Counted from the first letter of the stretch, positions 1,479 to 25,013 are shown. The stretch is 36,774 bases of DNA from Candidatus Micrarchaeota archaeon (GCA_038046065.1 JBBSWX010000052.1:1-36774); one strand, 5' to 3'. Translations and numbers: made by a program. The notes: generated by a model from the sequence alone, not told the origin.

Positions 1479-2201
1479 GTGCGCGTTATCCCTTTCATGC
1501 ACCCTGCGTTGCTTGCCGCCGCGTTGGCCTTTGCCGTTGCCGCGTCGTTCTTCGATTTGCGCGAACGCCGCATTCCCAACGCGCTTAACTTTGCGGCAGG
1601 CGCGCTTGCCGCCGCTGCGGCCGTTGCTTCCGGCGCGGAGATGATTCCGTTTGCCTTGTTCTCGTTGTTTTCATTCATTTTCGCTTACGCTCTCTACAAG
1701 CTTGGCGCGTGGGCGGGTGGTGATGCGAAGTTTTTCACCGCGTTATGCATGCTGCTTGGCGTAGAGTCGCAGGCGCTCCTGTTCGTGCCGGCGCTCTTCC
1801 TCATTTCCGTTGCGGTTTCCTTGCCGTTCATACTGCTGGGAGGGGTCGTGTTGCGCAAGTCCATTCCCATTTCGCAACTGCGGCCGGGAATGGTGCCTGT
1901 CAATTCTTACTACCGCGTTTCAGGCAGGCTAGTGGAGTGGGAGCCCGCAAACCCAGTGCGCATTGCGGCATCAGCGCTTTCCGGCAGTACCGTGCTGCTT
2001 TCCCCGCCTGCAGGCGTGCTTGTTGCTTCCGCAGCGCGTGCGCGCGGCCTTTCTCCCGCAGAGGTAACTGCCTTAAAGAAGGCTGGCGTAAAGGTTTTGC
2101 AAGTGCGGCGCACGGTCTCGTTCGCGCCTGCGCTTGCGGTTGCATTCGCCTTGATGGCGTTCGGTGTTGCGCAATGGGTTGCCGCGGTCAAGTTGGCATA
2201 G
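1479..2201 (+). CDS. prepilin/preflagellin peptidase, A24 aspartyl protease family (FlaK/PibD/EppA-like)
   Basis: Polytopic protein with both catalytic Asp motifs, FFDLRERRIPN and AWAGGDAKFF. It sits inside the pilin cluster. The start could be GTG 1479 or ATG 1497. Confidence 0.85.
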   Translation: MRVIPFMHPALLAAALAFAVAASFFDLRERRIPNALNFAAGALAAAAAVASGAEMIPFALFSLFSFIFAYALYKLGAWAGGDAKFFTALCMLLGVESQALLFVPALFLISVAVSLPFILLGGVVLRKSIPISQLRPGMVPVNSYYRVSGRLVEWEPANPVRIAASALSGSTVLLSPPAGVLVASAARARGLSPAEVTALKKAGVKVLQVRRTVSFAPALAVAFALMAFGVAQWVAAVKLA

Positions 2202-2611
2202 AGTTCCTCCTGGTGTTATCGTTCATGCTTGCCTTGACTGCAGTGCTGCTGGGCTCGGCGGAAGCCCACTTTCGCGCGGCGGAGTCGCTTGACAAGGCTG
2301 CGTTGTGCAAAGCCGCGCTCGACTCCACGGCTTCGCTTATTAACCACGCCTTTCTTTCCGGCAGGGGCACGCGCGTGAGTTCCGAATTGTTCATTCCCGA
2401 CGGTTCGGTGTGCTTTATCATCAACTCCTCGTTCTCTCCGCCAGTGCTTCAGTGCGATGCTGACGCGTTGCTTTCCCGCCGCGTGGAAAGCCGGGGCTTG
2501 AGGACTGCTGCAGTTTCCTTTTCCGCGTCCTGCCCGGTTTCAGGGTGGTTGCGCGTGACTGCGGTTAACAACGGTAATTCGGTGAGCGTGACTTGCGCCA
2601 AGCTGAACTGA
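2174..2611 (+). CDS. class III signal peptide protein (pilin-like)
   Basis: Only the last 145 codons of track ORF 1745..2611 make sense. ATG 2174 gives MGCRGQ/VGIEFLLVLSFMLALTAVLLG. It overlaps the end of the peptidase gene by 28 nt. Confidence 0.65.
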   Translation: MGCRGQVGIEFLLVLSFMLALTAVLLGSAEAHFRAAESLDKAALCKAALDSTASLINHAFLSGRGTRVSSELFIPDGSVCFIINSSFSPPVLQCDADALLSRRVESRGLRTAAVSFSASCPVSGWLRVTAVNNGNSVSVTCAKLN

Positions 2612-5345: not shown

Positions 5346-5725
5346 AGGGTTTCTTGCTTTCCACGGACGGGCTGCTGGCGCTCCTAATCGCCACCGCGGC
5401 TTTCTACGTAGTAATAATGCCGCACGACGGGGGTTACGCGCGGCTTTACGCACGCCAGGCCATTGCGCGCGATTATCTCGACATTCTCGCGTCAACCAAT
5501 TCTTCCGTAACGCCGGAAGAGTTTTCCGGCGTGGCGCTCGCGCTGGTTTCCAACGTCGCCCCTGCTTCGGGCGAGTGGCTTGGTGTAGAGAAGTTCGTCT
5601 ACCCGCGGCCAGCAGGCTGCGCGAATTCATCAGCCTGCTCTTTTTCCAACTCTAGTTCCGCGGGGGGCTATTTGCGGGTTCAAGACATCGTTTCGAGTTA
5701 CGTTAACCGGGCGTGGGTGCAATGA
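5342..5725 (+). CDS. class III signal peptide protein (pilin-like)
   Basis: GTG start, MKG/FLLSTDGLLALLIATAAFYVV. GGTGA lies 10 nt upstream. N-x-S/T sequons and Cys occur in the C-terminal part. Confidence 0.6.
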   Translation: MKGFLLSTDGLLALLIATAAFYVVIMPHDGGYARLYARQAIARDYLDILASTNSSVTPEEFSGVALALVSNVAPASGEWLGVEKFVYPRPAGCANSSACSFSNSSSAGGYLRVQDIVSSYVNRAWVQ

Positions 5726-6258
5726 GGGGCTTCGCTTCCATCATAATCGCGGCAATGGTTCTCGCCCTTTCGGTGGCTACTGTCGGAATGCAGCTCGCTG
5801 CGGGCGCGGAGCTAGATTCGCTGAACGCCAAGTTCGAGGCTGACCAGGTGGGCTGGAGGCATGCGGACGCGCGCGCCTTCTATTCCGCTGCCGTCACGGA
5901 CGTGGTTGTCGACTCGGCTTACTACGCGTGCGGCTGCGGCGTGAACGCGCCATCCAACTTCAACAATTCCTTGGCGGCGCTCTTGCCAATTTACTTCCAG
6001 AACTCATCCCGCGCCCTATCTACGCGCGCCGTCACGGTGAACGCCTCGCTCTTGGGGCTTCCATCAGTGGGGCTGGGAAGCTGCAATTCCACCTTCAGCT
6101 TTTCATTCAACTACACCGTTACGGCCAACTCGTCGAACGCCCGCAAGTTTTCAGTGGTGAACGAGTCGCGCGCAGTAACGCTCTTCAAGAACTCCACCGC
6201 GCTCGCCGTGAACGCAACTGGCGGCATTCCATTGCGGCTAATCGTCACCTGCGGGTAG
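5722..6258 (+). CDS. class III signal peptide protein (pilin-like), heavily sequon-decorated
   Basis: ATG 5722 (inside track ORF 5713..6258) gives MRG/FASIIIAAMVLALSVATVGM. I counted nine N-x-S/T sequons by hand. Confidence 0.6.
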   Translation: MRGFASIIIAAMVLALSVATVGMQLAAGAELDSLNAKFEADQVGWRHADARAFYSAAVTDVVVDSAYYACGCGVNAPSNFNNSLAALLPIYFQNSSRALSTRAVTVNASLLGLPSVGLGSCNSTFSFSFNYTVTANSSNARKFSVVNESRAVTLFKNSTALAVNATGGIPLRLIVTCG

Positions 6259-6290: not shown

Positions 6291-6351
6291 GTAACTGCAT
6301 AGTAGTAACATTAAATAGTTGTTTGGCGGCCGTGTGGCCGGGGGGATTCCA

Positions 6352-7146
6352 ATGTCGCTTTCCAAGATTGCCGGGCTTGCCGGCGTTGCCGTGTCCGTTC
6401 TTTTGCTTTTGGCTGCGTTCACCCCCACTGCCGGTGCGTACACGCCTGCAGCGTTCTCGCATGCTAGCGCTTCTCAAATCTCCAACGTGCGTGGCGCTAA
6501 CGGCTATTACTCTCCCTCTTTCAGTGACATGAAGTTCGCCAGCAACCCTTGGCAGGCTGGCAAGAGCATCTGGTGCGACGGTGGCCAGAGCAAGTACCGC
6601 TCGGGTTGCGTGGGCAGCGATTATTATGATTACGGCTCGTGGTCGCAGAACGGCTATTGCAGCGCGAAGGTATCTCACAACGACTACCGCTGCACTGGCG
6701 GCGTGTACGCCTACCCGTCAACTTCGGGCAGCTACGATTCGGGCAACTACGATTCGAGCCGCTACAGTTCCGGCACTTATTCCTCGCCTCGCGCTTCCGA
6801 CTCGAGCTTCGATTACTTCCAAAGCGGTTCAGGCAGTTCCAGCGCTTCGGGTTACGCCCGCACTGACTTTACTGGCGGCATAAGTAACAACTTCAACTCG
6901 TACTCTTACGTCAACTCGTTCAATGAGGATTCGTTCAACACCAATACTTACTCTTACGACTACAACGATGGCTATGGCAACTACGGCTATGGAAATTGCG
7001 GTTACGGCAACTGCGGGTACAGCAACTGCGGTTATTACGGCTGTGGCAATTCCTACTACTCGCTTGCGCCTTACTCGTACGCGTACTACTCGTACTCCGG
7101 CTATTCCACCAAGCCGTCCTATTACCTTTACTATTACCGCAGCTGA
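6352..7146 (+). CDS. secreted Tyr/Gly/Ser/Asn-rich low-complexity protein with GYGN(C/Y)GY repeats
   Basis: ATG 6352 gives the signal peptide MSLSKIAGLAGVAVSVLLLLAAFTPTAGA/YTP. The C-terminal half reads ...DGYGNYGYGNCGYGNCGYSNCGYYGCGNSYYSLAPYSYAYYSYSGYSTKPSYYLYYYRS. Confidence 0.7.
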   Translation: MSLSKIAGLAGVAVSVLLLLAAFTPTAGAYTPAAFSHASASQISNVRGANGYYSPSFSDMKFASNPWQAGKSIWCDGGQSKYRSGCVGSDYYDYGSWSQNGYCSAKVSHNDYRCTGGVYAYPSTSGSYDSGNYDSSRYSSGTYSSPRASDSSFDYFQSGSGSSSASGYARTDFTGGISNNFNSYSYVNSFNEDSFNTNTYSYDYNDGYGNYGYGNCGYGNCGYSNCGYYGCGNSYYSLAPYSYAYYSYSGYSTKPSYYLYYYRS

Positions 7147-8281: not shown

Positions 8282-8351
8282 GCAACGCGCAGTTTTCTGC
8301 AATGCGCAATTTCCTGCAACGCGCAATTCTTTCGCAATGCGCAATCGTTTT
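8282..8351. repeat. four tandem 17-18 nt direct repeats, GCAAYGCGCARTTYYYY
   Basis: gcaacgcgcagttttct / gcaatgcgcaatttcct / gcaacgcgcaattctttc / gcaatgcgcaatcgtttt, ending at a TTTTAAG box about 25 nt before ATG 8376. Confidence 0.7.
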
Positions 8352-8375
8352 AAGCCGCGGCTTCCTCAGTTACTT

Positions 8376-8867
8376 ATGAAGGTGGCGTTGGTAGTATTCG
8401 CGTTGGCATTCATAGCCGCCAGCCTTGCCGCGGTTGACTGTCTTGACTCCAGTTATTCGGGCGTGTGCGTTCTTTCCGAAGCGCCTTCCGACGACCTAGC
8501 ACAGCTTGCAGTTAAATACGTTGGAAAATTACGGTATTATTACGGTGGGACTGATCTTGAGCGCGGAGTTGATTGCTCTGGTTTCGTGCAGCAGCTTTAC
8601 TTGCAGTCGCGCGGAAGCCGCCTTAGCCGCACTGCCGCAAGCCAATTTAACGACAAGCGTGGCATTCTCGTGAACAAGAACCAACTTCAATCGGGCGACC
8701 TCGTATTTTTCAAAAACACTGGCAGCCGCAAAGGCATTACGCACGTAGGCATTTTCTTGAGCGGCTGTAACTTTATTCACGCCCCCGGTACGGGTAAGAA
8801 AGTTTCTTACGGCAACTTTTGCAGCCCGTACTACCGCGAGCACTATGCAGGCGCGCGCCGGGTGTAG
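8376..8867 (+). CDS. secreted NlpC/P60-family cell-wall endopeptidase
   Basis: Signal/anchor MKVALVVFALAFIAASLAAV. Catalytic Cys in GVDCSGFVQQLY and His in GITHVGIF, plus NFIHAP. The track start 8337 lies inside the repeat array, so ATG 8376 is preferred. Confidence 0.85.
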   Translation: MKVALVVFALAFIAASLAAVDCLDSSYSGVCVLSEAPSDDLAQLAVKYVGKLRYYYGGTDLERGVDCSGFVQQLYLQSRGSRLSRTAASQFNDKRGILVNKNQLQSGDLVFFKNTGSRKGITHVGIFLSGCNFIHAPGTGKKVSYGNFCSPYYREHYAGARRV

Positions 8868-13956: not shown

Positions 13957-14048
13957 GCCCCTGTAGCTCAGCGGTAGAGCGCCTGCATGGTATCCTTTTC
14001 CAAAGGCCTTAAAGCAGGAGGTCGCGGGTTCAATTCCCGTCGGGGGCT
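13957..14048 (+). tRNA. intron-containing tRNA, most likely tRNA-Thr (GGT) with an intron of about 20 nt at 37/38
   Basis: GCCCCTG-TA-GCTC-AGCGGTA-GAGC-G-CCTGC-[ATGGTA|TCCTTTTCCAAAGGCCTTAA|A]-GCAGG-AGGTC-GCGGG-TTCAATT-CCCGT-CGGGGGC-T. G1-C72 and U73 fit archaeal tRNA-Thr. Confidence 0.8.
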
Positions 14049-15605: not shown

Positions 15606-16271
15606 TTAATTCTTAGGGTGGCCTGCCGCCTGGCTCGCGAGTTTCGACAACAATTTTGTTTCGGCTTTCTGCAAGTGTTCCTGGAAGGTGGTGCGCGGCA
15701 TGCCTGCGAGAGCGGCGAGGCGCTTGACGCTATTGCGATGTGGGTACTCGTAATAGCCGTTCTCGAAGGCTTTCGCGAGGCAGTAGGCCTGCCGGCCGGT
15801 GAGGCCTGCCAAGGCCTGCGGGGCGAAGAGGTTGACTTCCTCGCTCTTGATGCTCATAAGCTCGGCGGTGGCGCGCGGCTTGCCGGAGTTTATCTTGCGG
15901 ACGAGTTCGTTAACGTCTCGTTTGCGCCATGCGCCAACAATCCAGTATTCGAACCCTTTGCGCACGCGGTTGGGTTTGAGGAAGAACACGCGGTTGCCGC
16001 ACAAGAGCGAGTGGTACTGGCTCTGCACTTTTATAGTGTAGAAAACTTGGTTGCCTGAAACGCCTTCTATCGCAATGCGTTTTTCCTTGCCGAGCTGGTT
16101 TATGAACTCGCGCGCGTCGCGCCCGGTGACGTAAAGCACGCGGCTGAGGAAAACGTTCTTGCCGCGCGTGAATGCATTGAGGTAATGGGCGTACACTTCA
16201 ACGTCGTAGCGCTTGGAAAGCTCGAGGTGCGCGCTTCCTTCGTGCCACACTTTCAGTTCGGCAACCCACAT
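15606..16271 (-). CDS. HTH_10 (bacterio-opsin-activator-type) DNA-binding regulator
   Basis: C-terminal LTGRQAYCLAKAFENGYYEYPHRNSVKRLAALAGMPRTTFQEHLQKAETKLL. It starts 39 nt downstream of the giant hydrolase stop on the same strand. Confidence 0.75.
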   Translation of the reverse strand: MWVAELKVWHEGSAHLELSKRYDVEVYAHYLNAFTRGKNVFLSRVLYVTGRDAREFINQLGKEKRIAIEGVSGNQVFYTIKVQSQYHSLLCGNRVFFLKPNRVRKGFEYWIVGAWRKRDVNELVRKINSGKPRATAELMSIKSEEVNLFAPQALAGLTGRQAYCLAKAFENGYYEYPHRNSVKRLAALAGMPRTTFQEHLQKAETKLLSKLASQAAGHPKN

Positions 16272-16310: not shown

Positions 16311-19300
16311 TCAAGCGCTTTTCAAGTATGCGTCAACGCCTTCAGCAATCGCCTGCGCCGCGGCCTTGCGGTATTCCGGCGAGGCGAGCTTGCGCGCGTC
16401 ACCCGCGTTCGACAGGTATGCAAGTTCAACGAGCACGGTTGTCGCTTCGGGCGCGCCCCACGCGTACAGCGTTGAAGGGTGTTGGCGCAATCCGCGGTCG
16501 TTCGTTCCCAGCGCGCCTACTAACCGCGTGTGAATTGCTTGCGCAAGGAGCTTGCACTTGGCAGTCAACGTGGTTTCAGCCCGCGCGTCCCAATAGTACG
16601 TTTCAGTCCCGCTTGCCGCCGGTGCGCCGCCGTTCGCGTGTATGCTGATGAACGCGTCGGCGCCTTTCTTCAACGCATTGCGCGCCGTGAATGAAGCGTC
16701 GCCAGCCGCGGGGGCATAGTCGGTGGCGCGCGTTTGCCTTACGGTATAGCCTTTCTGCTGCAGTAGCCTTCCCGCTTCGAGCGCAACTGCGAGGTTGACG
16801 TCGCGCTCGAGCACATTCTTGTCCACGATGCTAGTAGCGCCCTCTTTCGGGTGGCCGATGCCGTGCCCCGCGTCAAGCACTACCACCTTGCCGTTAGAGC
16901 CAGCAACTTCCGTTTTCTGGGGGATTGTCACCGCCGCGCCGGGCACTGCGCACGCGTGGCCGTAAAGCTCGCTGCAGCGCTGCTGCACAGCGTCGTAGTA
17001 ATAAGCGCCGTAGCCCTTGCGGTTGCATTTGCTTGCAGCAAAGTGCTTGAGGCACGCTTCGTTAAGCGCCTGTTTGAAGGGCATTCCCCCCTCCCACAGT
17101 TTCTTGGCGGTTGCCGCAGTTCCGCTGCCGCGGTTGTAGTACAGCCCCATGAACTGCAGGAGCTTCTCGCCCCGCAACCCTGCCTTGACGCCTGCGTTGA
17201 ATGCGGGAAGCAAGTGCCCCCGCACGCCGTTGCGAATGTTTTCTTCTAGGCTGCAGCCGCTCTTGGCGCAGGAAACAACTTGCATCGGCCCCTGGCGGTT
17301 TGGTGGGTTTTCGCGGCAGCCGCTTTCCTGCATTATCAGCGCCTTGACGAAATCTACGCTCACGCCTGCCGCCAGCAGTCCCGCCGTGCCCAGTTCTTTC
17401 TGCAGCAGCGCGTCGTACTTGTTGCACGCGGCAACTCTCGCGGGCGTGGTCGAGGCGATTGCGGGAACGCCGCCTACGGCAACCAGTTCGCTTTCCTTGC
17501 ACGCCATTCTCACTGAAGGCTCGTCGCCGAAGTATATTTGCAGCCCGCCGAACAGCGATTGCGCGATGCGCTCCAAGTCTTCAGGCTCGTTGAACGGCGA
17601 GCTTGGCGAGGCTATTGCCAGCGAAACAGCAGGTATGCTTGCGAGAGCGGCGCTCGACTCCACACCTGCCTTGCTCAAGGGCGCGCCTTTGGAAGTGGCT
17701 GCTTGCAGCTGGCTGAGCATTATTGCCGCGAGGCGGCGGGACTTTTCGTCCTTGAATTGCGCTGCCGGGGCGCTCTCGCTCGCGAATGAGAGTTCTAGCA
17801 TCAAATCTGCTTTCGCGCTTGCCGCGGTGTCGGCGCGCGCCTGCACGTTGGCTTGCGCCTCGCCGTTGCATTCTTCCTCGGTTACTGTGACTGCGGTTGC
17901 GCCAGTTTGCTGCAACAGTTGCGAGAGCCTTCCTGCAATCGTCATCGTCGCATCCAACTCTCCCGCTAGGGGAGGGGTGCACGAGCCTGCGTGCGCAACG
18001 TCTATCGCAATTACTTTGCCTTCCAACCCCGTGGCAGTTGTTTCTTCAGGCGCCATCGAGATGCTTGAAGTGCTTGAAGCGAGGGTTGCGCGGCACGATG
18101 GAATCACGCGCACAGCGCCAGCGTAGTGGGCTTGGTTATAGCTGTTGCACAAGCTGGAGATTGACGCCGTGCGGCCGGGGCTGGGTTCGTTTATGAACGC
18201 GCACTTGCCGTACTTGCTTTCAACCGCGTTGCCTGCGTACATTCCCACGTGCGTTATGCCTCCCCGTTTGTCGGTGTTCTTGAAGAAAACCAAGTCGCCG
18301 GGAACGAGTTCTTCCACGCGCGTGCCGACCGTGTACTGCTGCCTTGCCATGCGCGGCAGCGTCACGCCTAACTTTCGCATTACGCTTTGCACGAACCCCG
18401 AGCAGTCGGCTCCCGTGGAGAGGGACGTTCCCCCTTTGACGTAAGGCAGCTTGCCCACGTGCTTCGCCGCTTCCTGCACTACCGCGAGGCCGTCGGCGCC
18501 GCAAGCGCCTGTTGCAGTTGCCGCGGCGCTTTGCTTCACACGCGTTTCCAGGTAGCTCGTCGCGTCGTACTCTTCCCCGCAATCTTCCGGTTTGAGTTGT
18601 ATGTGCTCGACTTTGAGAGTTACTGGCACTTTATCGACGCGTTCGGGCAAGTCCAACAGGCCGAAACTCATGGTGCCTTTCACTTCGTCGAACGGAATGC
18701 TGCCGTCATCGCCCAGCTCGATGTCAGTCACGTCGGCGATTATGTTGAGCGTAGTCACTCCGCCTTCAAAGCCGTGTTGTTGGCTTGCGTAATTCGCCAC
18801 GTCGCCTTCAAACGCAGTGAGCGGCGAGTTTATCTCGAGGGGCGTAATGAGCGGTATTTTCAACGTCGTTCGTGGTTCTAGTTCGGTTACCGTGAGCGTG
18901 ATTTCTTCCGGCAGCTTCGGGAAGAACGCGTAAGCGTCCTCGCCGCCAGTGCCGCCTGCCTTGGGCGTGGCGGTTGTTTCAGGCGTGGGCGACGCGCCCG
19001 GCGCAGGAGTCGCTTGCCCTTGCGCGCGCGAGTTCTTTTCGTAATTTGCAACAACCGCTTCGGCCGCCTTGAATTTTTCAAGGACGCTTCCTTGCAGCGA
19101 GTCCGTTCTCGCGGCGTCGATTTCCGCGTTCAGCAACTGAATGAGGCGCGCCTTCTCACTTTCGCTCGCGCCGTTCTTCCTCCACGCGCTGTCGAGCCTT
19201 GCCAACAGCAGCGCGTACGCCATGGTTTCCTGAACGCGTTGTGCGGGAGTGCTGCTGCCGGAAGCTATTTTGAATAGTTGCGCGCCTGCCTGCGGGATGC

Positions 19301-20150
19301 CTGTCGCGCTGCCGCCTGCTTCGTAAGCGGCTGCCAGCACGTTTAGCGCGGCAACCTTGCTTGCAACCGTTCCCGCAGTCGCTTCTTGCGCAGTGAGCGC
19401 GGCGCTTGCCATCGCGTTGAACGCCGCTGCGGCGGGGCTGGACAGCCGCATTCGCGAAACTCGCCGGATGGCGTCAAGCGCAACTTCATTTTGCGGCAAT
19501 TCGCCTTGTTGCAATGCACTCGCATTCGCGAGGAGCGTGCTTGCGAAGTCTTGCGTTGAAAATATCACTAGCAGCGGCTGGAGGGCGTTTGGTGCAAAGC
19601 TGCCGGTTGTTTGCGCGCCTCCCGCGGCGGTCGTTTCAATTCCTTCAGGCATAGGAGGCGAAACCGAACCGTTTCCACCATTTACTTCCACTTCGTTCGC
19701 TTCGTTTTCCCACGCGGTTTTCTTCGTTGAAGCCGTTATCGTCGTGCTGCCGCCTGCGGGTATCTCGAGTTGCGCGATGCTAGCGCCGGGAATGGCTGCG
19801 GCGTTGCTCGCATAATCGCCGTATTCTACCGTGACGCTCGACGACTCGCCGCCGCCCGCGCCTTCAGGCAGCGTGGCTATCGCGCCAAGGCGCGTAGTCT
19901 CTTTGTTAGAATTGGATACTGTGACGCGCGTCGTCTCTCCTTCGCGCGAGGAGGTCACTGCGTGCAGCACGGTTACTCCGGGGGCGGGGGAGTGCGAGTA
20001 CGTAGTTATGTTGAACGCCGCGCCTGCCGCGGGCTGGAACCACTCAGGGTGCTTCACTCCTTGCAGGATGAGCGCGAGCAGCACGAGGAGCCCGAACGCA
20101 ATCACCAAGGCGCGCTTCCTGTGCGCATCGCTTTCCTTCGCCGCGGCCAT
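16311..20150 (-). CDS. membrane-anchored multi-domain murein hydrolase: NlpC/P60 + degenerate Amidase_3 + SLT lytic transglycosylase + Amidase_3
   Basis: N-terminal anchor KRALVIAFGLLVLLALILQGV. NlpC/P60: GADCSGFVQSV...GITHVGMY...HYAGAVRV (about nt 18105-18470). SLT: ALIMQESGCR...GPMQV...YYNRGSG (about 17090-17400). Amidase_3: VVVLDAGHG...ERDVNL...AFISIHANGG...VLVELAYLSN (about 16320-16895). Confidence 0.9.
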   Translation of the reverse strand: MAAAKESDAHRKRALVIAFGLLVLLALILQGVKHPEWFQPAAGAAFNITTYSHSPAPGVTVLHAVTSSREGETTRVTVSNSNKETTRLGAIATLPEGAGGGESSSVTVEYGDYASNAAAIPGASIAQLEIPAGGSTTITASTKKTAWENEANEVEVNGGNGSVSPPMPEGIETTAAGGAQTTGSFAPNALQPLLVIFSTQDFASTLLANASALQQGELPQNEVALDAIRRVSRMRLSSPAAAAFNAMASAALTAQEATAGTVASKVAALNVLAAAYEAGGSATGIPQAGAQLFKIASGSSTPAQRVQETMAYALLLARLDSAWRKNGASESEKARLIQLLNAEIDAARTDSLQGSVLEKFKAAEAVVANYEKNSRAQGQATPAPGASPTPETTATPKAGGTGGEDAYAFFPKLPEEITLTVTELEPRTTLKIPLITPLEINSPLTAFEGDVANYASQQHGFEGGVTTLNIIADVTDIELGDDGSIPFDEVKGTMSFGLLDLPERVDKVPVTLKVEHIQLKPEDCGEEYDATSYLETRVKQSAAATATGACGADGLAVVQEAAKHVGKLPYVKGGTSLSTGADCSGFVQSVMRKLGVTLPRMARQQYTVGTRVEELVPGDLVFFKNTDKRGGITHVGMYAGNAVESKYGKCAFINEPSPGRTASISSLCNSYNQAHYAGAVRVIPSCRATLASSTSSISMAPEETTATGLEGKVIAIDVAHAGSCTPPLAGELDATMTIAGRLSQLLQQTGATAVTVTEEECNGEAQANVQARADTAASAKADLMLELSFASESAPAAQFKDEKSRRLAAIMLSQLQAATSKGAPLSKAGVESSAALASIPAVSLAIASPSSPFNEPEDLERIAQSLFGGLQIYFGDEPSVRMACKESELVAVGGVPAIASTTPARVAACNKYDALLQKELGTAGLLAAGVSVDFVKALIMQESGCRENPPNRQGPMQVVSCAKSGCSLEENIRNGVRGHLLPAFNAGVKAGLRGEKLLQFMGLYYNRGSGTAATAKKLWEGGMPFKQALNEACLKHFAASKCNRKGYGAYYYDAVQQRCSELYGHACAVPGAAVTIPQKTEVAGSNGKVVVLDAGHGIGHPKEGATSIVDKNVLERDVNLAVALEAGRLLQQKGYTVRQTRATDYAPAAGDASFTARNALKKGADAFISIHANGGAPAASGTETYYWDARAETTLTAKCKLLAQAIHTRLVGALGTNDRGLRQHPSTLYAWGAPEATTVLVELAYLSNAGDARKLASPEYRKAAAQAIAEGVDAYLKSA

Positions 20151-20270: not shown

Positions 20271-20765
20271 ATGGCTAAAATAGTTATTTCGGCACTAGTG
20301 GAAGGCGGCAAGGCCAGCGCTGCGCCGCCGCTAGGCCCGGCGCTCGGACCGTCCGGCTTGAACCTCGGCGAGATAATCGCGGCGATAAACAAGAAGACCG
20401 AAGCGTTCGCCGGCATGCAAGTGCCCGTGAAAGTTATTGTGGACAAGGCTTCGCGCACTTTCGAGATTGAGGTTGGCACGCCGCCCGTGAGCGGCCTGGT
20501 GAAAAGCAAGCTCGGCATTTCCGCACCCGTGAAGGAAGAGGCGGGCGTGAAGGGCAAGAAGACGATTGGCAACCTTTCGTTCGACCAGCTCGTTTCCATC
20601 TGCAAGATGAAGCAGGAAGGCGCGCTAGCCAAGTCCCTCAAGGCGCTTGCTTGCGAGGTGGCCGGCACGTGCCTCAGCATGGGCGTGACTATCGAAGGCA
20701 AGGGTCCGAAGGAAATCGTCGCTGCGATAAAGGAAGGCAAGTTCGACGCCAAGCTCGCCGGTTGA
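20271..20765 (+). CDS. rpl11: 50S ribosomal protein uL11
   Basis: VEGGKASAAPPLGPALGPSGLNLGEIIAAINKKT...FEIEVGTPPVS. AAGGAG lies upstream of the ATG. Confidence 0.95.
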   Translation: MAKIVISALVEGGKASAAPPLGPALGPSGLNLGEIIAAINKKTEAFAGMQVPVKVIVDKASRTFEIEVGTPPVSGLVKSKLGISAPVKEEAGVKGKKTIGNLSFDQLVSICKMKQEGALAKSLKALACEVAGTCLSMGVTIEGKGPKEIVAAIKEGKFDAKLAG

Positions 20766-20901: not shown

Positions 20902-21351
20902 GTGCGAGGCGATTGTTTCTTGAATTCTGCGGGACAACTTTTACAAACTTCCTTCTCCCGCCAGGTTCAAGCACGCTTCAAGGATTTCGACGATTTTGAA
21001 TTAGTACTAAAAGATTCTGTTCAGCGCGAGCTGCGCGGCCGGCAATCCGATTGGATGCACACGCTGGCCGTCGTGCAGAACATGAAGCGGCTCGTGTCGG
21101 TGGAAGGAGGAAAGCGTGACATACTAGTACCGCTTGCTTATGTGCACGAGATCGCGCGGCCGAAAGGCGACGTCACCGTGCTCTACCCCGGCAGGACCGC
21201 GGTGCTGCAGCGCTGCGCCTTCTGCGCCGAGCACGCCAAAACGCTTTTGTTATCACTAGGCTTTCCTGAAGACAAGGCAATCAACATCGCGCGCCTGCTC
21301 GAGTCGAACGAGTGCATGGAACTCAAGCGCGCCCACCACGCGATACTCTAG
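20902..21351 (+). CDS. HD-superfamily-like protein (weak)
   Basis: H...HE spacing (WMHTLAVVQNMKRL ... LAYVHEIARP) resembles an HD domain with Asp replaced by Glu. Start uncertain (GTG 20902 or TTG 20920). Confidence 0.35.
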   Translation: MRGDCFLNSAGQLLQTSFSRQVQARFKDFDDFELVLKDSVQRELRGRQSDWMHTLAVVQNMKRLVSVEGGKRDILVPLAYVHEIARPKGDVTVLYPGRTAVLQRCAFCAEHAKTLLLSLGFPEDKAINIARLLESNECMELKRAHHAIL

Positions 21352-22232
21352 TTTTTGCGTGCCTTCCTGAAGCAGGCGACTATCTCTGCGTAAGTGCCAG
21401 CAATTTCATTTACTGTTTGCGCGCGCGTTGCTTTTCCCGCAATCATCTTGGCCAGCGGGGCGCGGAATATCGTGCGGCCTACTGCGAAGCCTTCCACCCC
21501 CGGCACGGCGGCCGCGGTTGCAACCCACTTTTTAACGTGGTCGAGCGACTCGCCGCGGCCGAGCACTATCACGCGCGAGCCCGGCGCGAACGCCAACGCC
21601 GCACCGAAAACCTCGCCGGCCGTTTGCTTCGACTCCACGCCTTCAAGCTTCCACACTGCGGGGCGCACGCCTGCAGTGGTTATCTCGCGCAACGCCTTCA
21701 CCATCAACGCCGGCCGCGCCCTGCAGTCAAAGTTTTTTCCGTACGCCTTCAATTGGCTTTTCGTCGGTGGCACGAGCATCTCGAACAACAGCTTCCCGCC
21801 GTTAGCGTCAAGCCACTGCTGCAGCTGCCGCAGCCTAACCAACTGCCGTTTGTTCAACGCCTTGTTGGCCGGGTTGTAGCGCACGAGCACTTTCACGAAG
21901 TCTGGCTTGAACTTGCGCACGTGGCTCGCAAAGTTTTTTCCGTACTCGAATTGAAACTCTTCACACCCGCTCTTCTCCACGGGCAGCGCGAACGCCACTT
22001 TTTCCTTTCTAGCGCGCCTCAGCACGGCCGCACCGTACTCCTCGTCGCACAAGACCGCTGCCTCGCGCCTAACAACTTTCCCACTGCGGATTGCCTGCAT
22101 CACCGCGTCGAAAACCGTTTCTTTCGCCGCTTCAATCCTTCGCTTTTGGGCGGGCGTGGGCGTCCCCTTCACGGCGAATAGTTTCTCGCGGAATGACACG
22201 CGTTGGTCGAAAGCGAGTATGAAGAGCGTCAA
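21348..22232 (-). CDS. DUF2090 / IolC-C-terminal-like class I aldolase-fold protein
   Basis: FILAFDQRVSF, LLFEMLVPP, VWKLEG, VIVLGRG and GFAVGRTIF match my memory of the DUF2090 pattern. The TTG start overlaps the PfkB stop. Confidence 0.7.
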   Translation of the reverse strand: MTLFILAFDQRVSFREKLFAVKGTPTPAQKRRIEAAKETVFDAVMQAIRSGKVVRREAAVLCDEEYGAAVLRRARKEKVAFALPVEKSGCEEFQFEYGKNFASHVRKFKPDFVKVLVRYNPANKALNKRQLVRLRQLQQWLDANGGKLLFEMLVPPTKSQLKAYGKNFDCRARPALMVKALREITTAGVRPAVWKLEGVESKQTAGEVFGAALAFAPGSRVIVLGRGESLDHVKKWVATAAAVPGVEGFAVGRTIFRAPLAKMIAGKATRAQTVNEIAGTYAEIVACFRKARKN

Positions 22233-23212
22233 CTTGCCGCACCTCCCTTAGTTTTGAGTTTGCGCGCCGCCGCGGTTATTTCGCTGCGCGTGCACTTCAA
22301 GTGCGCGCCAACGCGAGTCATCTTTATGGCCGCCGCGGCAGTTGCCATCTTTAGCGCCGTCTCGAGCGTTTCTCCCGCCAAGTGGCTTTGCGCGAACACT
22401 CCTGCGAACGCGTCCCCCGCGCCCGTAGCGTCAACAACGCGGCCAGCCGCGGAGTGAATTGAAACAACTTTGTTTCCGTCCGTGCCAACTGCCCCCCGCG
22501 CGCCCCGCGTGACAACTTTTACATTGCCCGGAAGGTTTTCCAGCATTTCCCGCAAGTTGTTCCTGCACGTGAGCTTCACGGCTTCCTCATCGTTCATTAT
22601 CACGACGTCAAACCCGCCGCGCATCGCCCGCACCGCGTCAAGCTGCGCGTTCAGCATCGTCATGCTGGGCGCGAACACGACGGGCTTGCCGCAGCGTTTT
22701 ACGAGCGTAATGAGCTTCTTCACCGCGCGCATGTTCCCTTCAGACGTGAGGGACGTTATGAAAACCGCGTCGCTCCACTCTACGAGTTGCGGCGTGACGT
22801 GGTTTTGCGAGAGGTTGGCGAGCGCGCCTTTGAACGTGAGGGACGACTTCTCGCCTTTCGCGAGCAGCACGATGCTGGCTGCAGTTGGGAGCCTGCCGTC
22901 TTCCACCACCTTGCCGCCGATGCCGTGAGCCTTCAAATCTTTTTTTACCAGCCGGCCGAACTCGTCTTTGCCTACTGCCGTGAGTATTCGCGCTTGCGCG
23001 CCTGCGCAGCGGGCTGCCACCGCGGCGTTGGCCGCGCTGCCGCCGAACCTCAAGTCTATCGAGTCCAGCTCGCTTTTCGACCCGAGGTTGACGCACACGA
23101 GCTTTTCGAACAAGTTGCCTTCCCGGCTGCCGTGCCTTATGGAAATTTCTTCAGGGTCGTGCATCCTCGCGACTACGTCGACGAGCGCGCTTCCCACGAA
23201 CAGTATTTTCAT
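22229..23212 (-). CDS. PfkB-family (ribokinase-like) sugar kinase
   Basis: GGSAANAAVAAR near the N-terminus and the C-terminal VDATGAGDAFAGVF motif. Confidence 0.85.
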   Translation of the reverse strand: MKILFVGSALVDVVARMHDPEEISIRHGSREGNLFEKLVCVNLGSKSELDSIDLRFGGSAANAAVAARCAGAQARILTAVGKDEFGRLVKKDLKAHGIGGKVVEDGRLPTAASIVLLAKGEKSSLTFKGALANLSQNHVTPQLVEWSDAVFITSLTSEGNMRAVKKLITLVKRCGKPVVFAPSMTMLNAQLDAVRAMRGGFDVVIMNDEEAVKLTCRNNLREMLENLPGNVKVVTRGARGAVGTDGNKVVSIHSAAGRVVDATGAGDAFAGVFAQSHLAGETLETALKMATAAAAIKMTRVGAHLKCTRSEITAAARKLKTKGGAAS

Positions 23213-23213
23213 T

Positions 23214-24149
23214 TCACTTCCTCCTCGCCAACGCGCGCAAGGCCGCGCGTTCGATGCCTTTCGCGTCCAGCCCGAACTTTTTCAAAAGCTCGGCCGGTTT
23301 GCCGCTCTCGCCAAACTTGCTGCGCACCGCCACCATTTCTATCGGCGTGGGCCGCCTTTCCGCAAGCAGCTCTGCAACCGCGCTTCCCACGCCGCCTTGC
23401 AACTGGTGTTCTTCCGCCGTCACGACGCAGCCGCATTGCGCGGCGGCCTTCACTAGCGTATTTTCATCGAGTGGCTTTATCGTGTGCAAGTTGATTACGC
23501 GCGCGGAAACCCCCTTGGCAGCCAGGGCTTTCGCCGCTTCAAGCGCCTGGGCAACCTCGACGCCGTTCGCGATTATCGCCACGTCACTCCCTTCGTGCAG
23601 TGTCACTGCCTTGCCGATAGTGAACGCGCCGTTTCCGGATACGTGCGGCACCCTTTCTCTCCCCAGCCTCAGGTACATTGGCCCAGCAATACTGGCCGCT
23701 GCCACCGTTGCCTTGCGCGCTTCCTCCCCGTCGCACGGCGCGATTACCGTGAAGTTCGGGAGGCTGCGCATCAACGCAATGTCTTCCAGCATTTGCGCGT
23801 TCGCCCCATCCTCCCCAGTTGTCACGCCGCAATGCGTCGCCGCCAGTTTCACGTTCAGGTTGCTTAACGCCACGCTCACGCGAATTTGGTCGAAGCACCG
23901 TGCGGGGAGGAAAGCGCCGAAGCTCGCTGCGAAAGGCACCTTTCCGGCAATGGCAAGGCCGGCGGCCATCGCTACCATGTTTTGCTCGGCAATTCCTGCC
24001 TGCACGAACCGGCCTGGAAACTTTTTCGCGAACGCCTCGACTTTAGTGCTGTCGTTCAAATCTCCCGTCAACGCCACGACGCGCGCATCCGCCTCTCCAG
24101 CTTCGGCGAGGCCTCGGCCGAAGCCTTCGCGCGTAGATTCTTCAAGCAT
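23214..24149 (-). CDS. transketolase, C-terminal (pyrimidine-binding) subunit
   Basis: REGFGRGL, GIAEQNMVAMAAGLA, THCGVTTGEDGANAQ, and EEHQLQGGVGSAV. Confidence 0.9.
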   Translation of the reverse strand: MLEESTREGFGRGLAEAGEADARVVALTGDLNDSTKVEAFAKKFPGRFVQAGIAEQNMVAMAAGLAIAGKVPFAASFGAFLPARCFDQIRVSVALSNLNVKLAATHCGVTTGEDGANAQMLEDIALMRSLPNFTVIAPCDGEEARKATVAAASIAGPMYLRLGRERVPHVSGNGAFTIGKAVTLHEGSDVAIIANGVEVAQALEAAKALAAKGVSARVINLHTIKPLDENTLVKAAAQCGCVVTAEEHQLQGGVGSAVAELLAERRPTPIEMVAVRSKFGESGKPAELLKKFGLDAKGIERAALRALARRK

Positions 24150-24164
24150 TTTTTTTCAACTCCC

Positions 24165-25013
24165 TTACTGCGCCAATTCCTTTAACGCTTCTGCAGCCTG
24201 CGTTTGCGACAAGGCTTTGCCGTGCCACTCGTGCTTTGCTTGCATGAACGACACGCCCTTGCCCATAGTTGTCTTGAATATTATTGCGGAAGGCTTTCCT
24301 TTCGTTGCGCGCGCTTTCTTGAACGCCGCGAGTATTTGCGTGAAGTCGTGCCCATCTGCGTTTATCACGTTCAACCCGAACGAAGAGAGCCTCTCGGCGA
24401 GTGGTTCTAGCGTCATTATTCCTTCAGTCCTGCCGTTCTGTTGCAGCCCATTGCGGTCGATGAATATCGTGAGGTTGTCGAGCTTGTAGTGGCTTGCTGC
24501 CGCGAACGCCTCCCAGCAGCTTCCCTCTTCAAGCTCTCCGTCTCCCATCGAGCAGTACACGCGGTTCGGCAGGCGTTCCATTTTCATTCCCAATGCGATT
24601 CCCACCGCGACGCCTATCCCTTGCCCCAGCGAACCCGTGGAAACTTCCACTTGAGGCAGCGTACCGCGCACCGGGTGGCCTTGAAGCCTACTCCCCAACT
24701 GCCTTAGCGTCGTCAGCTCTCTCTCAGGAATGCACTTCGCTTGCGCGAGCGCAGCGTACCACGCAGGGTTCAAGTGGCCGTTGCTAAGAACGAAATAATC
24801 CCTGCCTTTCCACCGCGCGTCGCCGGGCTTGAACTTCAACACCCCTCCCAAATACAGTGCCGCGAACACGTCTGCTATTCCCAAGCTCCCGCCGGGGTGG
24901 CCGCTGCCTGCCGCCGTAGTCATTTTCACTACTGCGACGCGCATCTCGCGCGCGGCTTGACGCAGCTTTTCCAGCATTCCCAAAGCCTTCTTCACGATAA
25001 GAAGGTATTGCAT
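24165..25013 (-). CDS. transketolase, N-terminal (ThDP-binding) subunit
   Basis: GSGHPGGSLG, SNGHLNPAWYA, GSLGQGIGVAVG, GDGELEEG, and DRNGLQQNG. The start may be ATG 24977. Confidence 0.9.
   Translation of the reverse strand: MQYLLIVKKALGMLEKLRQAAREMRVAVVKMTTAAGSGHPGGSLGIADVFAALYLGGVLKFKPGDARWKGRDYFVLSNGHLNPAWYAALAQAKCIPERELTTLRQLGSRLQGHPVRGTLPQVEVSTGSLGQGIGVAVGIALGMKMERLPNRVYCSMGDGELEEGSCWEAFAAASHYKLDNLTIFIDRNGLQQNGRTEGIMTLEPLAERLSSFGLNVINADGHDFTQILAAFKKARATKGKPSAIIFKTTMGKGVSFMQAKHEWHGKALSQTQAAEALKELAQ

What the first reader, a model, noticed from the sequence alone, without database searches (positions are those of the whole stretch)
16311..20150. 1279-aa membrane-anchored protein fusing three different murein-cleaving activities in an archaeon
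Seen in sequence: there is one N-terminal TM anchor and then about 520 aa of unassigned beta-rich and Ala-rich sequence. Four modules follow in order. (1) NlpC/P60 (GADCSGFV, GITHVGMY). (2) An Amidase_3-like module. (3) An SLT lytic transglycosylase (ALIMQESG, GPMQV, YYNRGSG). (4) A well-preserved Amidase_3 (LDAGHG, ISIHANGG, VELAYLSN). Established knowledge: these families cut the peptide stem, the MurNAc-GlcNAc glycan and the MurNAc-L-Ala bond of bacterial peptidoglycan, and archaea do not make murein. Every other gene in the window is archaeal. Inference: this is an outward-facing weapon or feeding tool aimed at bacterial cell walls, for predation, episymbiosis or competition. It is anchored on the archaeal surface and encoded a few kb from a pilus/adhesin locus and a second secreted NlpC/P60. 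I do not recognise this four-module architecture as a described protein.
Basis: partly seen in the sequence, partly recalled or inferred. Interest (0 to 1): 0.85.

Follow-up and report, generated by a model that had tools for sequence, protein, structure and literature searches.

The report
Micrarchaeota surface protein carrying bacterial-wall-cutting enzymes
A tiny archaeon that makes no bacterial-type cell wall encodes a membrane-anchored surface protein carrying three predicted enzymes that cut bacterial cell wall; it belongs to a previously undescribed, vertically inherited Micrarchaeota family that swaps such enzymes on a common stalk, which suggests these archaea routinely deal with bacteria.

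Summary
ORF 16311-20150(-) encodes 1279 aa with one N-terminal hydrophobic anchor, about 490 aa with no family match, then NlpC/P60, an Amidase_3-like module, an SLT-like module and an intact Amidase_3.

Two corrections:
- The internal amidase is a dead copy: the second Zn-binding His and the catalytic Glu are lost.
- The SLT module gives no Pfam hit itself. It is supported through its family (7 of 10 members hit SLT), a confident AF2 model and Foldseek hits to MltE/MltC/MltF.

The contig is truly archaeal, and the gene recurs identically in independent assemblies.

The protein is not a one-off fusion. It belongs to a family of at least 14 clusters, and every named member is from Micrarchaeota. 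Members share the anchor and a scaffold (beta-sandwich, helical bundle, beta-sandwich), followed by varying mixes of M23, NlpC/P60, Amidase_3 and SLT-like modules. The gene usually sits on the opposite strand between rpl11 and spt5-secE-ftsZ, so it looks anciently inherited rather than recently transferred.

Best reading: an outward-facing, contact-dependent tool for degrading bacterial murein. That idea is already published for other DPANN archaea and for archaea in general, so this is a new variant of a known kind. Function is untested.

The parts
16311..20150 (-). Complete gene, 1279 aa: anchored multi-hydrolase of the Micrarchaeota scaffold family
   Evidence: ORF listing. The identical protein with identical neighbours occurs in GCA_964358245.1 and in a Logan assembly of ERR3858133. 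NCBI names it 'MAG: N-acetylmuramoyl-L-alanine amidase [Candidatus Micrarchaeota archaeon]'.
20055..20114 (-). N-terminal hydrophobic segment (aa 13-32) after a basic HRKR stretch: a signal anchor or an uncleaved or cleaved Sec signal
   Evidence: Kyte-Doolittle scan. Its position is conserved in all family members. Cleavage could not be predicted with the tools available.
19716..20012 (-). Scaffold beta-sandwich 1 (aa ~47-145)
   Evidence: AF2 model built with the family alignment; block pLDDT 80-93. Foldseek gives generic CBM2, chitin-binding and cadherin-like matches, but its output does not say which sandwich matched.
19017..19553 (-). Scaffold Ala-rich helical bundle (aa ~200-378), expanded compared with most relatives
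   Evidence: AF2 helices H165-343 in model numbering. The family alignment shows a lineage-specific expansion shared with P0003 and P0005.
18606..18902 (-). Scaffold beta-sandwich 2 (aa ~417-515), the most conserved scaffold part: the 'FPxLPxEIxLxVSE' block through to 'VPVxhxVxH'
   Evidence: Alignments; G and H invariant, E and two D nearly invariant. AF2 block pLDDT up to 97.
18108..18446 (-). NlpC/P60 cysteine peptidase module (aa 569-681); C583, H634, N654
   Evidence: Pfam 1.2e-19. PDB sequence hits to CwlT-like and Tn916-type hydrolases and to LytE/CwlO. About 50% identical to the small paralogue, which has His where the target has Asn as third triad residue. Residue numbers.
17505..18020 (-). 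Degenerate Amidase_3-like module (aa ~711-882): a predicted pseudo-enzyme
   Evidence: Pfam 24.7 bits, below the cutoff of 27. H720 and E731 are kept, but the second Zn-binding His is S788 and the catalytic Glu is A845, and the central segment is deleted. The orthologous modules of P0008, P0018, P0058 and P0064 are intact.
16947..17444 (-). Divergent Cys-rich SLT/GH23-like glycan-cleaving module (aa ~903-1068); catalytic E942-S943, GPMQV at 954, YNRG at 1005
   Evidence: No direct Pfam hit. Family alignment with invariant E, S and six Cys. 7 of 10 members hit PF01464. Profile hits to MltC and EmtA. AF2 pLDDT 88.9. Foldseek to MltE, MltC, MltF and g-type lysozymes, TM 0.52-0.61.
16332..16883 (-). 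Intact Amidase_3 module (aa 1090-1273); H1096, E1115, H1171, E1242
   Evidence: Pfam 5.3e-42. All four catalytic or Zn-binding residues align with CwlV 1jwq. Nearest relative is the amidase of Micrarchaeota CG1_02_55_22, 45.5% identical.
20271..20765 (+). Ribosomal protein L11 gene, head-to-head neighbour: the syntenic marker of the locus
   Evidence: Pfam. The same head-to-head arrangement is seen in L003, L007, L009 and L012.
8337..8867 (+). Second, small (176 aa) NlpC/P60 protein with an N-terminal hydrophobic segment; a paralogue of the NlpC/P60 module
   Evidence: Pfam 1.2e-24. About 50% identity to aa 545-690 of the large protein.

Best explanation
The gene encodes an outward-facing protein held on the Micrarchaeota cell surface by an N-terminal anchor.

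A conserved scaffold (beta-sandwich, helical bundle, flexible linker, beta-sandwich) projects a string of enzyme modules away from the membrane. These are:
- an NlpC/P60 peptidase, which cuts the stem peptide;
- a dead amidase-like module, possibly a binding, spacer or regulatory element;
- a GH23/SLT-like module, which cuts the MurNAc-GlcNAc glycan as either a lytic transglycosylase or a muramidase;
- an intact Amidase_3, which strips the stem peptide from MurNAc.

The archaeon is not known to make murein, so the substrate would be bacterial murein met on contact. The protein would locally breach or digest the wall of an attached bacterium (host or prey) and/or release muropeptides as food.

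Shown here: the anatomy, conservation of the catalytic residues, family membership, archaeal origin and synteny. Inferred: the topology, the substrate and the biological purpose.
For: - Four murein-specific catalytic families (M23, NlpC/P60, Amidase_3, SLT-like) are combined in different ways on one conserved scaffold across the family. That is hard to explain unless murein is the common substrate.
- Catalytic residues are intact in three of the target's modules.
- There is an N-terminal hydrophobic segment. The SLT-like module has 8 Cys, 6 of them invariant, which fits an extracytoplasmic location.
- No immunity-like partner is evident. The neighbours are housekeeping genes and GC is uniform: 0.608 for the gene against 0.579 for the window.
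- All named members are from Micrarchaeota, including genes on 1.30-Mb and 534-kb contigs next to PolD, PolB, Spt5 and FtsZ.
- One genome clusters two scaffold paralogues with a LysM+NlpC/P60 protein.
- A cultivated Micrarchaeon has a proteinaceous S-layer, not murein (bioRxiv 10.1101/2021.04.28.441871).
- The same interpretation has been proposed for LT-domain proteins of other DPANN (PMC8204110, PMC9723730), and archaeal peptidoglycan hydrolases have been shown to kill bacteria (PMC12352652).
Against: - No enzymatic, localisation or expression data exist.
- All cultivated DPANN, including Micrarchaeota, have archaeal hosts, and those of Micrarchaeota are wall-less Thermoplasmatales (PMC8975820; bioRxiv 10.1101/2023.02.24.529834).
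- No recognised murein-binding domain (LysM, SH3b, PG_binding) is present in the target.
- A core, syntenic, vertically inherited gene near ftsZ with exactly the bacterial autolysin toolkit is also what a housekeeping autolysin would look like.
- In PrgK, predicted hydrolase modules proved inactive or regulatory, and its 'SLT' domain was a muramidase (PMC11323569). Module predictions can therefore mislead.
- The Foldseek E-values for the SLT-like fold are modest (best 0.014).
Confidence: 0.62

Rival explanations
1. Scavenging rather than attack. The protein digests free murein fragments or dead-cell sacculi (necromass) near the cell, to harvest amino sugars and amino acids for an archaeon with reduced biosynthesis. 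Live bacteria are not targeted.
For: - Anchoring keeps the products close to the producer.
- DPANN genomes are described as scavengers that recycle cell components (PMC9723730, PMC8204110).
- No pore-forming toxin or other killing factor was seen in the window.
- No dedicated cell-wall-binding domain is present.
Against: - No uptake or catabolic genes for muropeptides (anhydro-MurNAc kinase, MurQ, NagA/B, oligopeptide permease) were seen in the 36.8-kb window. This is a very weak test.
- An A24 prepilin peptidase and pilin-like ORFs about 10 kb away suggest a capacity for contact.
- This reading overlaps mechanistically with the main explanation.
Confidence: 0.2
2. Housekeeping autolysin. These Micrarchaeota build an unrecognised murein-like wall of their own, and the anchored multi-hydrolase remodels or splits it during growth and division.
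For: - The module set (Amidase_3, M23/LytM, NlpC/P60, SLT) is exactly the bacterial set for growth and cell separation.
- The gene is lineage-conserved and vertically inherited, and it sits beside spt5-secE-ftsZ.
Against: - A cultivated Micrarchaeon has a proteinaceous S-layer (bioRxiv 10.1101/2021.04.28.441871).
- No report of murein synthesis in DPANN turned up in the literature searches.
- No Mur ligase, MraY, FtsW or PBP gene appears in the roughly 150 kb of family loci inspected. Coverage is too low to be decisive.
- ftsZ-secE-spt5-rpl11 is a general archaeal gene order (my own knowledge), so proximity to ftsZ carries little weight.
Confidence: 0.05
3. Non-murein substrate. The modules were re-purposed to cut an archaeal host envelope (pseudomurein, S-layer glycoprotein, other glycans) during episymbiosis with archaea.
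For: - All cultivated DPANN have archaeal hosts (bioRxiv 10.1101/2023.02.24.529834).
- The SLT-like module is very divergent and Cys-rich, and the NlpC/P60 third triad residue is Asn. Altered specificity is therefore possible.
Against: - From established chemistry (my own knowledge): pseudomurein has no MurNAc, no lactyl-L-Ala amide bond and no D-amino acids. N-acetyltalosaminuronic acid carries a C6 carboxylate, so it cannot form the 1,6-anhydro product of a lytic transglycosylase.
- Keeping four independent murein-specific families together would require parallel re-purposing of all of them.
- The active-site residues are the canonical ones.
Confidence: 0.08
4. Artefact. A bacterial gene was mis-binned or chimerically assembled into an archaeal contig.
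For: All recognisable domains belong to families typical of bacteria, and the record is a MAG.
Against: - The identical gene with identical archaeal neighbours on both sides occurs in three assemblies.
- GC is uniform.
- Ten further family members sit on archaeal contigs of up to 1.3 Mb, in conserved synteny with rpl11 and spt5.
Confidence: 0.01

Closest known systems
[quoted passage not shown] 2021, PMC8204110; GH23 proteins in Vigneron et al. 2022, PMC9723730)
   Same: They are DPANN archaea with large, predicted extracellular proteins carrying a murein glycan-cleaving domain. They have been interpreted as tools to bind or degrade bacterial walls, and as a hint of bacterial hosts or prey.
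   Different: - The phylum differs: here it is Micrarchaeota.
- Here there is a defined conserved scaffold with several different catalytic types (peptidase, amidase, glycan cleaver).
- The gene has a conserved chromosomal position.
- Homology to fam00969 could not be tested because no sequences were at hand.
Modular archaeal peptidoglycan hydrolases (Strock et al. 2025, PMC12352652)
   Same: Archaeal proteins built from bacterial-type wall hydrolase domains, many with secretion signals. Two of them were shown to kill a bacterium.
   Different: - Their screen required a recognised cell-wall-binding domain. The target has none, so it would be missed.
- Their proteins are patchily distributed, enriched on plasmids and mostly soluble.
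- This family is lineage-wide, chromosomal, syntenic, anchored and multi-catalytic.
PrgK (pCF10), and CwlT/Tn916-Orf14-type cell-wall hydrolases of Gram-positive conjugation systems (PMC11323569; PDB 4fdy, 4hpe, 9ubf)
   Same: - An N-terminal membrane anchor is followed by two or three different wall-hydrolase modules (LytM/M23, SLT/lysozyme-like, CHAP or NlpC/P60), including degenerate ones.
- They are the best PDB sequence matches of the target's NlpC/P60 module, and among the top Foldseek matches of its SLT-like module.
   Different: - Those proteins act on the producer's own wall, to let a type IV secretion channel through, and are encoded within conjugation operons.
- Here there are no T4SS genes nearby, the producer has no murein, the module order differs, and an unrelated 490-aa scaffold is present.
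Multi-domain phage endolysins and bacterial autolysins (for example CHAP + amidase + SH3b staphylococcal lysins; Atl)
   Same: Two or more catalytic modules attack different murein bonds within one polypeptide.
   Different: Those carry dedicated wall-binding domains, are soluble or wall-bound rather than membrane-anchored, and occur in phages or bacteria. There is no phage context here: PHROGs found nothing significant.

Membership tests
NlpC/P60 (Pfam PF00877, MEROPS C40) | Profile match above the curated cutoff | tested here: met
   70.7 bits against a cutoff of 23, aa 569-681
NlpC/P60 (Pfam PF00877, MEROPS C40) | Catalytic Cys-His plus a third polar residue | tested here: met
   C583 (GADCSGF), H634 (GITHVGMY) and N654, where the paralogue and P0003 have His. 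Asn is an accepted third residue in papain-like folds (my own knowledge).
Amidase_3 (PF01520): C-terminal module | Profile match above the cutoff, plus Zn ligands His/Glu/His and the catalytic Glu | tested here: met
   144 bits. H1096, E1115, H1171 and E1242 align with CwlV 1jwq.
Amidase_3 (PF01520): internal module | Profile match above the cutoff, plus Zn ligands His/Glu/His and the catalytic Glu | tested here: not met
   24.7 bits, below the cutoff of 27, with a partial profile. The second His is S788 and the catalytic Glu is A845, and the centre is deleted. It is a homologous remnant, not a functional member.
SLT / GH23 lytic transglycosylase (PF01464) | Profile match of the sequence itself | tested here: not met
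   No hit at E<=10 for aa 900-1085. No PDB sequence hit.
SLT / GH23 lytic transglycosylase (PF01464) | Homology through intermediates, and the motifs E-S / GLMQ / YNxG | tested here: met
   7 of 10 module relatives hit PF01464, best E 2.4e-6. P0050 passes the cutoff, 21.9 against 21.3. The profile finds MltC and EmtA with ES and GLMQV in register. E942-S943, GPMQV and YNRG are conserved.
SLT / GH23 lytic transglycosylase (PF01464) | Goose-lysozyme/SLT fold | tested here: met
   AF2 pLDDT 88.9, pTM 0.86. The top Foldseek hits are MltE, MltC, MltF and g-type lysozymes, with probability 0.92-1.0 and TM 0.52-0.61; the best E-value is only 0.014.
SLT / GH23 lytic transglycosylase (PF01464) | Lytic transglycosylase chemistry (1,6-anhydroMurNAc product) rather than hydrolysis | not testable with these tools
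   The PrgK 'SLT' domain proved to be a muramidase (PMC11323569). Muropeptide LC-MS is needed.
Modular archaeal PGH as defined by Strock et al. 2025 | At least one catalytic domain plus one recognised cell-wall-binding domain | tested here: not met
   No LysM, SH3, PG_binding or similar domain is detected. The scaffold beta-sandwiches only weakly resemble CBM2 or chitin-binding folds.
T4SS-associated anchored hydrolases (PrgK/CwlT type) | Encoded within, and working with, a conjugation or T4SS gene set | tested here: not met
   The neighbours are L11, HTH_10, a PEP-utilising enzyme, Spt5, FtsZ and PheRS.
Micrarchaeota scaffold-hydrolase family (defined here) | N-terminal anchor, beta-sandwich, helical region, 'FPxLPxEIxLxVSE ... 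VPVxhxVxH' beta-sandwich, then murein-hydrolase modules | tested here: met
   A scaffold HMM recovers 13 full-length representatives and 1 fragment among the top 150 hits, plus all fetched loci. Target E 1e-94.
Micrarchaeota scaffold-hydrolase family (defined here) | Chromosomal position next to rpl11 and/or spt5-secE-ftsZ, on the opposite strand | tested here: met
   The window gene is head-to-head with L11. L11 and/or Spt5 flank the gene in 7 of 11 distinct loci, and two more keep the PheRS flank.

The most novel reading that the evidence does not exclude
Non-acidophilic Micrarchaeota are habitual episymbionts or predators of bacteria, an archaeon-on-bacterium lifestyle not yet demonstrated for any cultivated DPANN. 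This conserved gene, embedded in the spt5-rpl11 cluster, would then be their core host-wall-breaching device: a modular 'murein drill' whose enzyme heads are swapped to match the wall chemistry of different bacterial hosts.
Probability: 0.27. Interest if true: 0.8.

Novelty: new variant of a known kind. Interest (0 to 1): 0.56.

Why it matters
All cultivated DPANN archaea live on other archaea. Whether some live on, or prey on, bacteria is an open question, so far argued only from scattered lytic-transglycosylase genes in Woese- and Pacearchaeota.

This finding adds a lineage-wide, vertically inherited and syntenic gene family in Micrarchaeota that displays changing sets of murein-specific enzymes on a conserved surface scaffold. 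That gives a concrete, testable handle:
- the presence and module content of the gene could predict which Micrarchaeota interact with bacteria, and with what wall type;
- the recombinant ectodomain can be assayed directly;
- the modules (a Cys-rich GH23 variant, and an anchored tri-functional lysin) are candidate antibacterial enzymes;
- the dead amidase offers a natural example of a pseudo-enzyme kept inside a multi-enzyme protein.

Tried and rejected
- **Indexed protein search.** The full protein returned only itself and one NlpC/P60 fragment. The SLT segment alone returned nothing. The scaffold+SLT alignment returned nothing, probably because low-complexity words swamped the candidate list.
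- **Isolated SLT segment.** Pfam, PHROGs and PDB sequence searches gave nothing.
- **Contig scans.** With 4 close sequences it found only 2 loci. Both metagenome-contig scans found nothing. Pattern-based scanning is a poor fit for this divergent family.
- **Foldseek of the scaffold.** Against PDB and BFVD it gave only generic beta-sandwich or helical-repeat matches, and no whole-scaffold homologue.
- **Source environment.** A literature search for the run accession ERR3858133 found nothing, so the environment is unknown.
- **Papers linking Micrarchaeota to murein, amidase or NlpC.** None describes this family.
- **Nearest bacterial relatives.** The named ones are Bacillota, but several ranked high only because of repeated domains. 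This is not a phylogeny, and I draw no donor inference from it.
- **Rejected readings.** A phage or provirus origin (no PHROG hits, housekeeping neighbours, uniform GC) and chimerism (three concordant assemblies plus synteny in other genomes).

Full report
**1. The observation**

The ORF is exactly where stated: 16311..20150 on the minus strand, ATG start, 1279 aa. A hydropathy scan finds one strongly hydrophobic segment, with windows starting at aa 10-17, after a basic HRKR stretch. The only other window, starting at aa 922, is borderline.

Pfam on the full protein gives NLPC_P60 at aa 569-681 (E 1.2e-19) and Amidase_3 at aa 1090-1273 (E 5.3e-42, with a second stretch). NCBIfam agrees, with CwlD-, p60- and AmiA/B/C-type partial matches. 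aa 40-560 match no family.

**2. The two weaker modules**

*Internal amidase-like module.* The isolated segment aa 700-900 scores 24.7 bits on Amidase_3. That is below the cutoff of 27 and covers only the first two thirds of the profile.

I aligned it with CwlV, with the C-terminal amidase and with the orthologous modules of relatives. The target keeps the first His (H720) and the Glu (E731). The second Zn-binding His is replaced by S788 and the catalytic Glu by A845, and the central segment is deleted. The closest relative, P0003, has lost three of the four residues. P0008, P0018, P0058 and P0064 keep all four. The module is therefore a decayed copy of an ancestral active amidase.

*SLT module.* aa 900-1085 give no Pfam, PHROG or PDB sequence hit, even at E<=10. 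However:
- Relatives found later share an alignable 170-aa module with invariant Glu-Ser (E942-S943), 'G(L/P/I)MQV', 'YNRGxGTA' and six invariant Cys.
- 7 of 10 of these modules hit PF01464 (best E 2.4e-6), and 5 hit Lysozyme_like.
- The family profile finds MltC and EmtA in the PDB with the catalytic motifs in register.
- An AlphaFold2 model built on the family alignment is confident (pLDDT 88.9, pTM 0.86).
- Its best Foldseek matches are MltE, MltC, MltF, goose-type lysozymes and the lysozyme-like domains of 4fdy and 4hpe. TM is 0.52-0.61 and probability about 1, but the best E-value is only 0.014.

I accept it as a divergent GH23/SLT-like domain. Whether it is a lytic transglycosylase or a muramidase cannot be told from sequence. 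The 'SLT' domain of PrgK turned out to be a muramidase (PMC11323569).

*Other catalytic residues.* The C-terminal Amidase_3 has all four (H1096, E1115, H1171, E1242). The NlpC/P60 module has C583, H634 and Asn654, where relatives have His.

**3. Is it really archaeal?**

The window carries aIF2-gamma, an HTH_10 regulator, L11, class-I LysRS, Kae1, a Bud32-like kinase, Sua5, a split transketolase and an A24 prepilin peptidase. GC is even across the window: 0.608 for the gene against 0.579 overall.

The identical protein with the same neighbours on both sides occurs on a 20.8-kb contig of GCA_964358245.1 and on a 12-kb Logan contig of run ERR3858133. NCBI labels it a Candidatus Micrarchaeota MAG protein. 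Chimerism and contamination are effectively excluded, also by point 5 below.

**4. A family, not a one-off**

An index-free HMMER search of 1.84 billion representative proteins returned multi-module relatives. They share the N-terminal anchor and a scaffold that ends in a well-conserved block, 'FPxLPxEIxLxVSE ... G..PFD ... VPVxhxVxH'. A scaffold HMM recovers 13 full-length representatives and one fragment among the best 150 hits.

After the scaffold they carry different hydrolase sets (plus the SLT-like alignment):

| Member | Modules after the scaffold |
|---|---|
| P0010, P0015, P0052 | NlpC/P60 only |
| P0008, P0018 | NlpC/P60 + Amidase_3 |
| P0005, P0006 | M23 + SLT-like |
| P0050, P0061, locus L004 | NlpC/P60 + SLT-like |
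| P0058, P0064 | Amidase_3 + SLT-like |
| P0007 (fragment) | M23 + unassigned region + NlpC/P60 + Amidase_3 + C-terminal tail |
| P0003 | NlpC/P60 + dead amidase + SLT-like |
| target | as P0003, plus an intact C-terminal Amidase_3 |

The exact four-module order is seen only in the target.

Every member that carries a source name is from Micrarchaeota or Micrarchaeia. Per module, the nearest relative within the retrieved set is always another family member:
- NlpC/P60: 63-48% identity;
- SLT-like: 61-29%;
- C-terminal amidase: 45.5%, to Micrarchaeota CG1_02_55_22;
- dead amidase: 38% to P0003, with weaker matches to the intact internal amidases of P0008 and P0018.

So there is no sign of a recent import. 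The nearest named bacterial relatives are Bacillota, but that ranking is inflated by repeated domains and is not a phylogeny.

**5. Synteny**

| Locus (member) | Arrangement | Call |
|---|---|---|
| L009 (P0008), L012 (P0015) | L11(-), gene(+), Spt5(-), then a small ORF (SecE-sized); FtsZ follows in L012 | 93, 96 |
| L010 (P0018), L006 (P0058, 534-kb contig with PolD) | Spt5-small ORF-FtsZ flank kept | 94, 90 |
| L003 (P0006, 206 kb), L007 (P0003), the window | head-to-head L11 flank kept | 49, 91, 1/10 |
| L003, L004, probably L008 | PheRS beta/alpha downstream | 49, 50, 92 |
| L011 | neither flank | 95 |
| L005 (P0050, 1.30-Mb contig) | a cluster: two tandem scaffold paralogues, a LysM+NlpC/P60 protein and a further 890-aa protein | 89, 101 |

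Nine of eleven distinct loci thus keep at least one ancestral flank. This points to an old, vertically inherited locus in which the catalytic modules were exchanged in place.

**6. The scaffold**

An AlphaFold2 model of aa 36-523, built with 14 family sequences, has mean pLDDT 76. It resolves into:
- a beta-sandwich (aa ~47-145);
- a low-confidence loop;
- an Ala-rich helical bundle (aa ~200-378), expanded in the target's sub-lineage;
- a disordered Pro/Thr/Gly linker (aa ~386-404);
- a second beta-sandwich (aa ~417-515).

Foldseek finds only domain-level similarity. The matches are the CBM2 cellulose-binding domain (E 7e-4), chitin-binding domains of archaeal chitinases, cadherin repeats and phage tail Ig-like domains. 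There is no whole-scaffold match in the PDB or BFVD. A stalk or spacer role, possibly with glycan binding, is plausible but unproven.

**7. Mechanism**

*Shown:* the anatomy, intact active sites in three modules, one dead module, the family, the taxonomy and the synteny.

*Inferred:* an N-in/C-out topology. This rests on the single N-terminal hydrophobic segment, the Pro/Ser/Thr-rich stalks in relatives and the Cys-rich SLT-like module.

*Substrate.* Four murein-specific enzyme families are combined in different ways on one scaffold, so murein is the only substrate that explains all of them.

Pseudomurein is an unlikely target on chemical grounds (my own knowledge). It has no MurNAc, no lactyl-L-Ala amide bond and no D-amino acids. 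Its talosaminuronic acid cannot form a 1,6-anhydro ring.

A cultivated Micrarchaeon has a proteinaceous S-layer (bioRxiv 10.1101/2021.04.28.441871). I found no report of murein synthesis in DPANN.

*Most likely function.* Contact-dependent degradation of bacterial murein, for breaching an attached bacterium and/or for feeding. I give this about 0.6 for attack or attachment and 0.2 for pure scavenging.

*Other rivals:*
- Own-wall autolysin (0.05). It gains some weight from the gene being core and syntenic and from the autolysin-like toolkit.
- Non-murein substrate (0.08).
- Artefact (0.01).

**8. Comparison with what is known**

The idea itself is published:
- Large extracellular LT-domain proteins in Pace- and Woesearchaeota have been read as signs of bacterial hosts (PMC8204110).
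- GH23 genes underpin the 'vampiristic' Woesearchaeota proposal (PMC9723730).
- About 5% of archaeal genomes encode modular peptidoglycan hydrolases, and two of those enzymes kill a bacterium (PMC12352652).

That last screen required a recognised wall-binding domain, so it would miss this protein.

Architecturally, the closest analogue is the anchored LytM+SLT+CHAP protein PrgK of a Gram-positive conjugation system. It also contains a degenerate module (PMC11323569). CwlT/Tn916-type hydrolases are the best PDB matches of the NlpC/P60 module. Those proteins act on the producer's own wall and sit in T4SS operons, which is not the case here.

What I could not find described:
- the Micrarchaeota-specific scaffold family;
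- its combinatorial module content;
- its fixed position in the spt5-rpl11 cluster;
- the Cys-rich SLT-like subfamily;
- this tri-functional member.

**9. Verdict**

The find is richer than a single odd fusion.

- Novelty: a new variant of a known kind.
- Interest: 0.56.
- Most novel reading not excluded: many Micrarchaeota live on or prey on bacteria, with this conserved modular device as their wall-breaching tool. Probability about 0.27; interest if true 0.8.

Noticed in passing
window 1479-2611 and 5713-6258 (+): A type IV leader peptidase (Peptidase_A24, E 3e-10) is followed by an ORF whose product contains a pilin-like class III signal ('RGQVGIEFLLVLSF'). A second ORF starts 'MRGFASIIIAAMVLAL'. 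This fits an archaeal type IV pilus or adhesion locus about 10 kb from the hydrolase gene. The pilin-like ORFs have no Pfam match.
   Followed up: partly
window 6319-7146 (+): A 275-aa predicted secreted protein with an N-terminal hydrophobic segment and an extremely Tyr/Ser/Gly/Asn-rich, low-complexity C-terminal half (runs such as 'GYGNCGYGNCGYSNCGYYGCG'). It has no family match and could be a surface or adhesive protein.
   Followed up: no
window 13957-14048 (+): ARAGORN calls a 92-nt tRNA-Asp with anticodon ATC, which is unusual. The length suggests an intron-containing archaeal tRNA whose anticodon was mis-assigned. Rfam confirms a tRNA there (58.5 bits).
   Followed up: no
window 15606-16271 (-): An HTH_10 (Bat-type) transcription regulator lies 40 bp downstream of the hydrolase gene on the same strand, in all three assemblies of this organism. 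It is absent at this position in the other family loci. It may be co-transcribed or regulatory.
   Followed up: no
L005 2566-10403 (JGI Ga0376277_0000005, 1.30-Mb Micrarchaeia contig): A cluster of wall-hydrolase genes: a 239-aa LysM + NlpC/P60 protein, a 762-aa scaffold + SLT paralogue, P0050 (scaffold + NlpC/P60 + SLT-like) and an 890-aa protein with a weak Antistasin hit. A row of small unannotated ORFs precedes the cluster. The same genome also encodes the short SLT-like protein P0109.
   Followed up: partly
P0007 aa ~250-480 and ~800-935; P0008 aa ~765-899: Two family members carry further unassigned regions. P0007 has a segment between its M23 and NlpC/P60 modules containing 'GFFAMESTYGKYG', which might be a glucosaminidase or lysozyme-like module. 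Both members share a conserved C-terminal tail ('V(I/L)DVGP(F/W)C ... DWRFV') that might be an RlpA/DPBB-like domain. Neither region hit Pfam at E<=0.01.
   Followed up: no
window 21348-25013 (-): A run of DUF2090, a PfkB-family sugar kinase, and transketolase split into separate N-terminal and C-terminal genes. This is a sugar-phosphate module next to the L11 gene, at the position where L003 has L1 and L10 instead.
   Followed up: no
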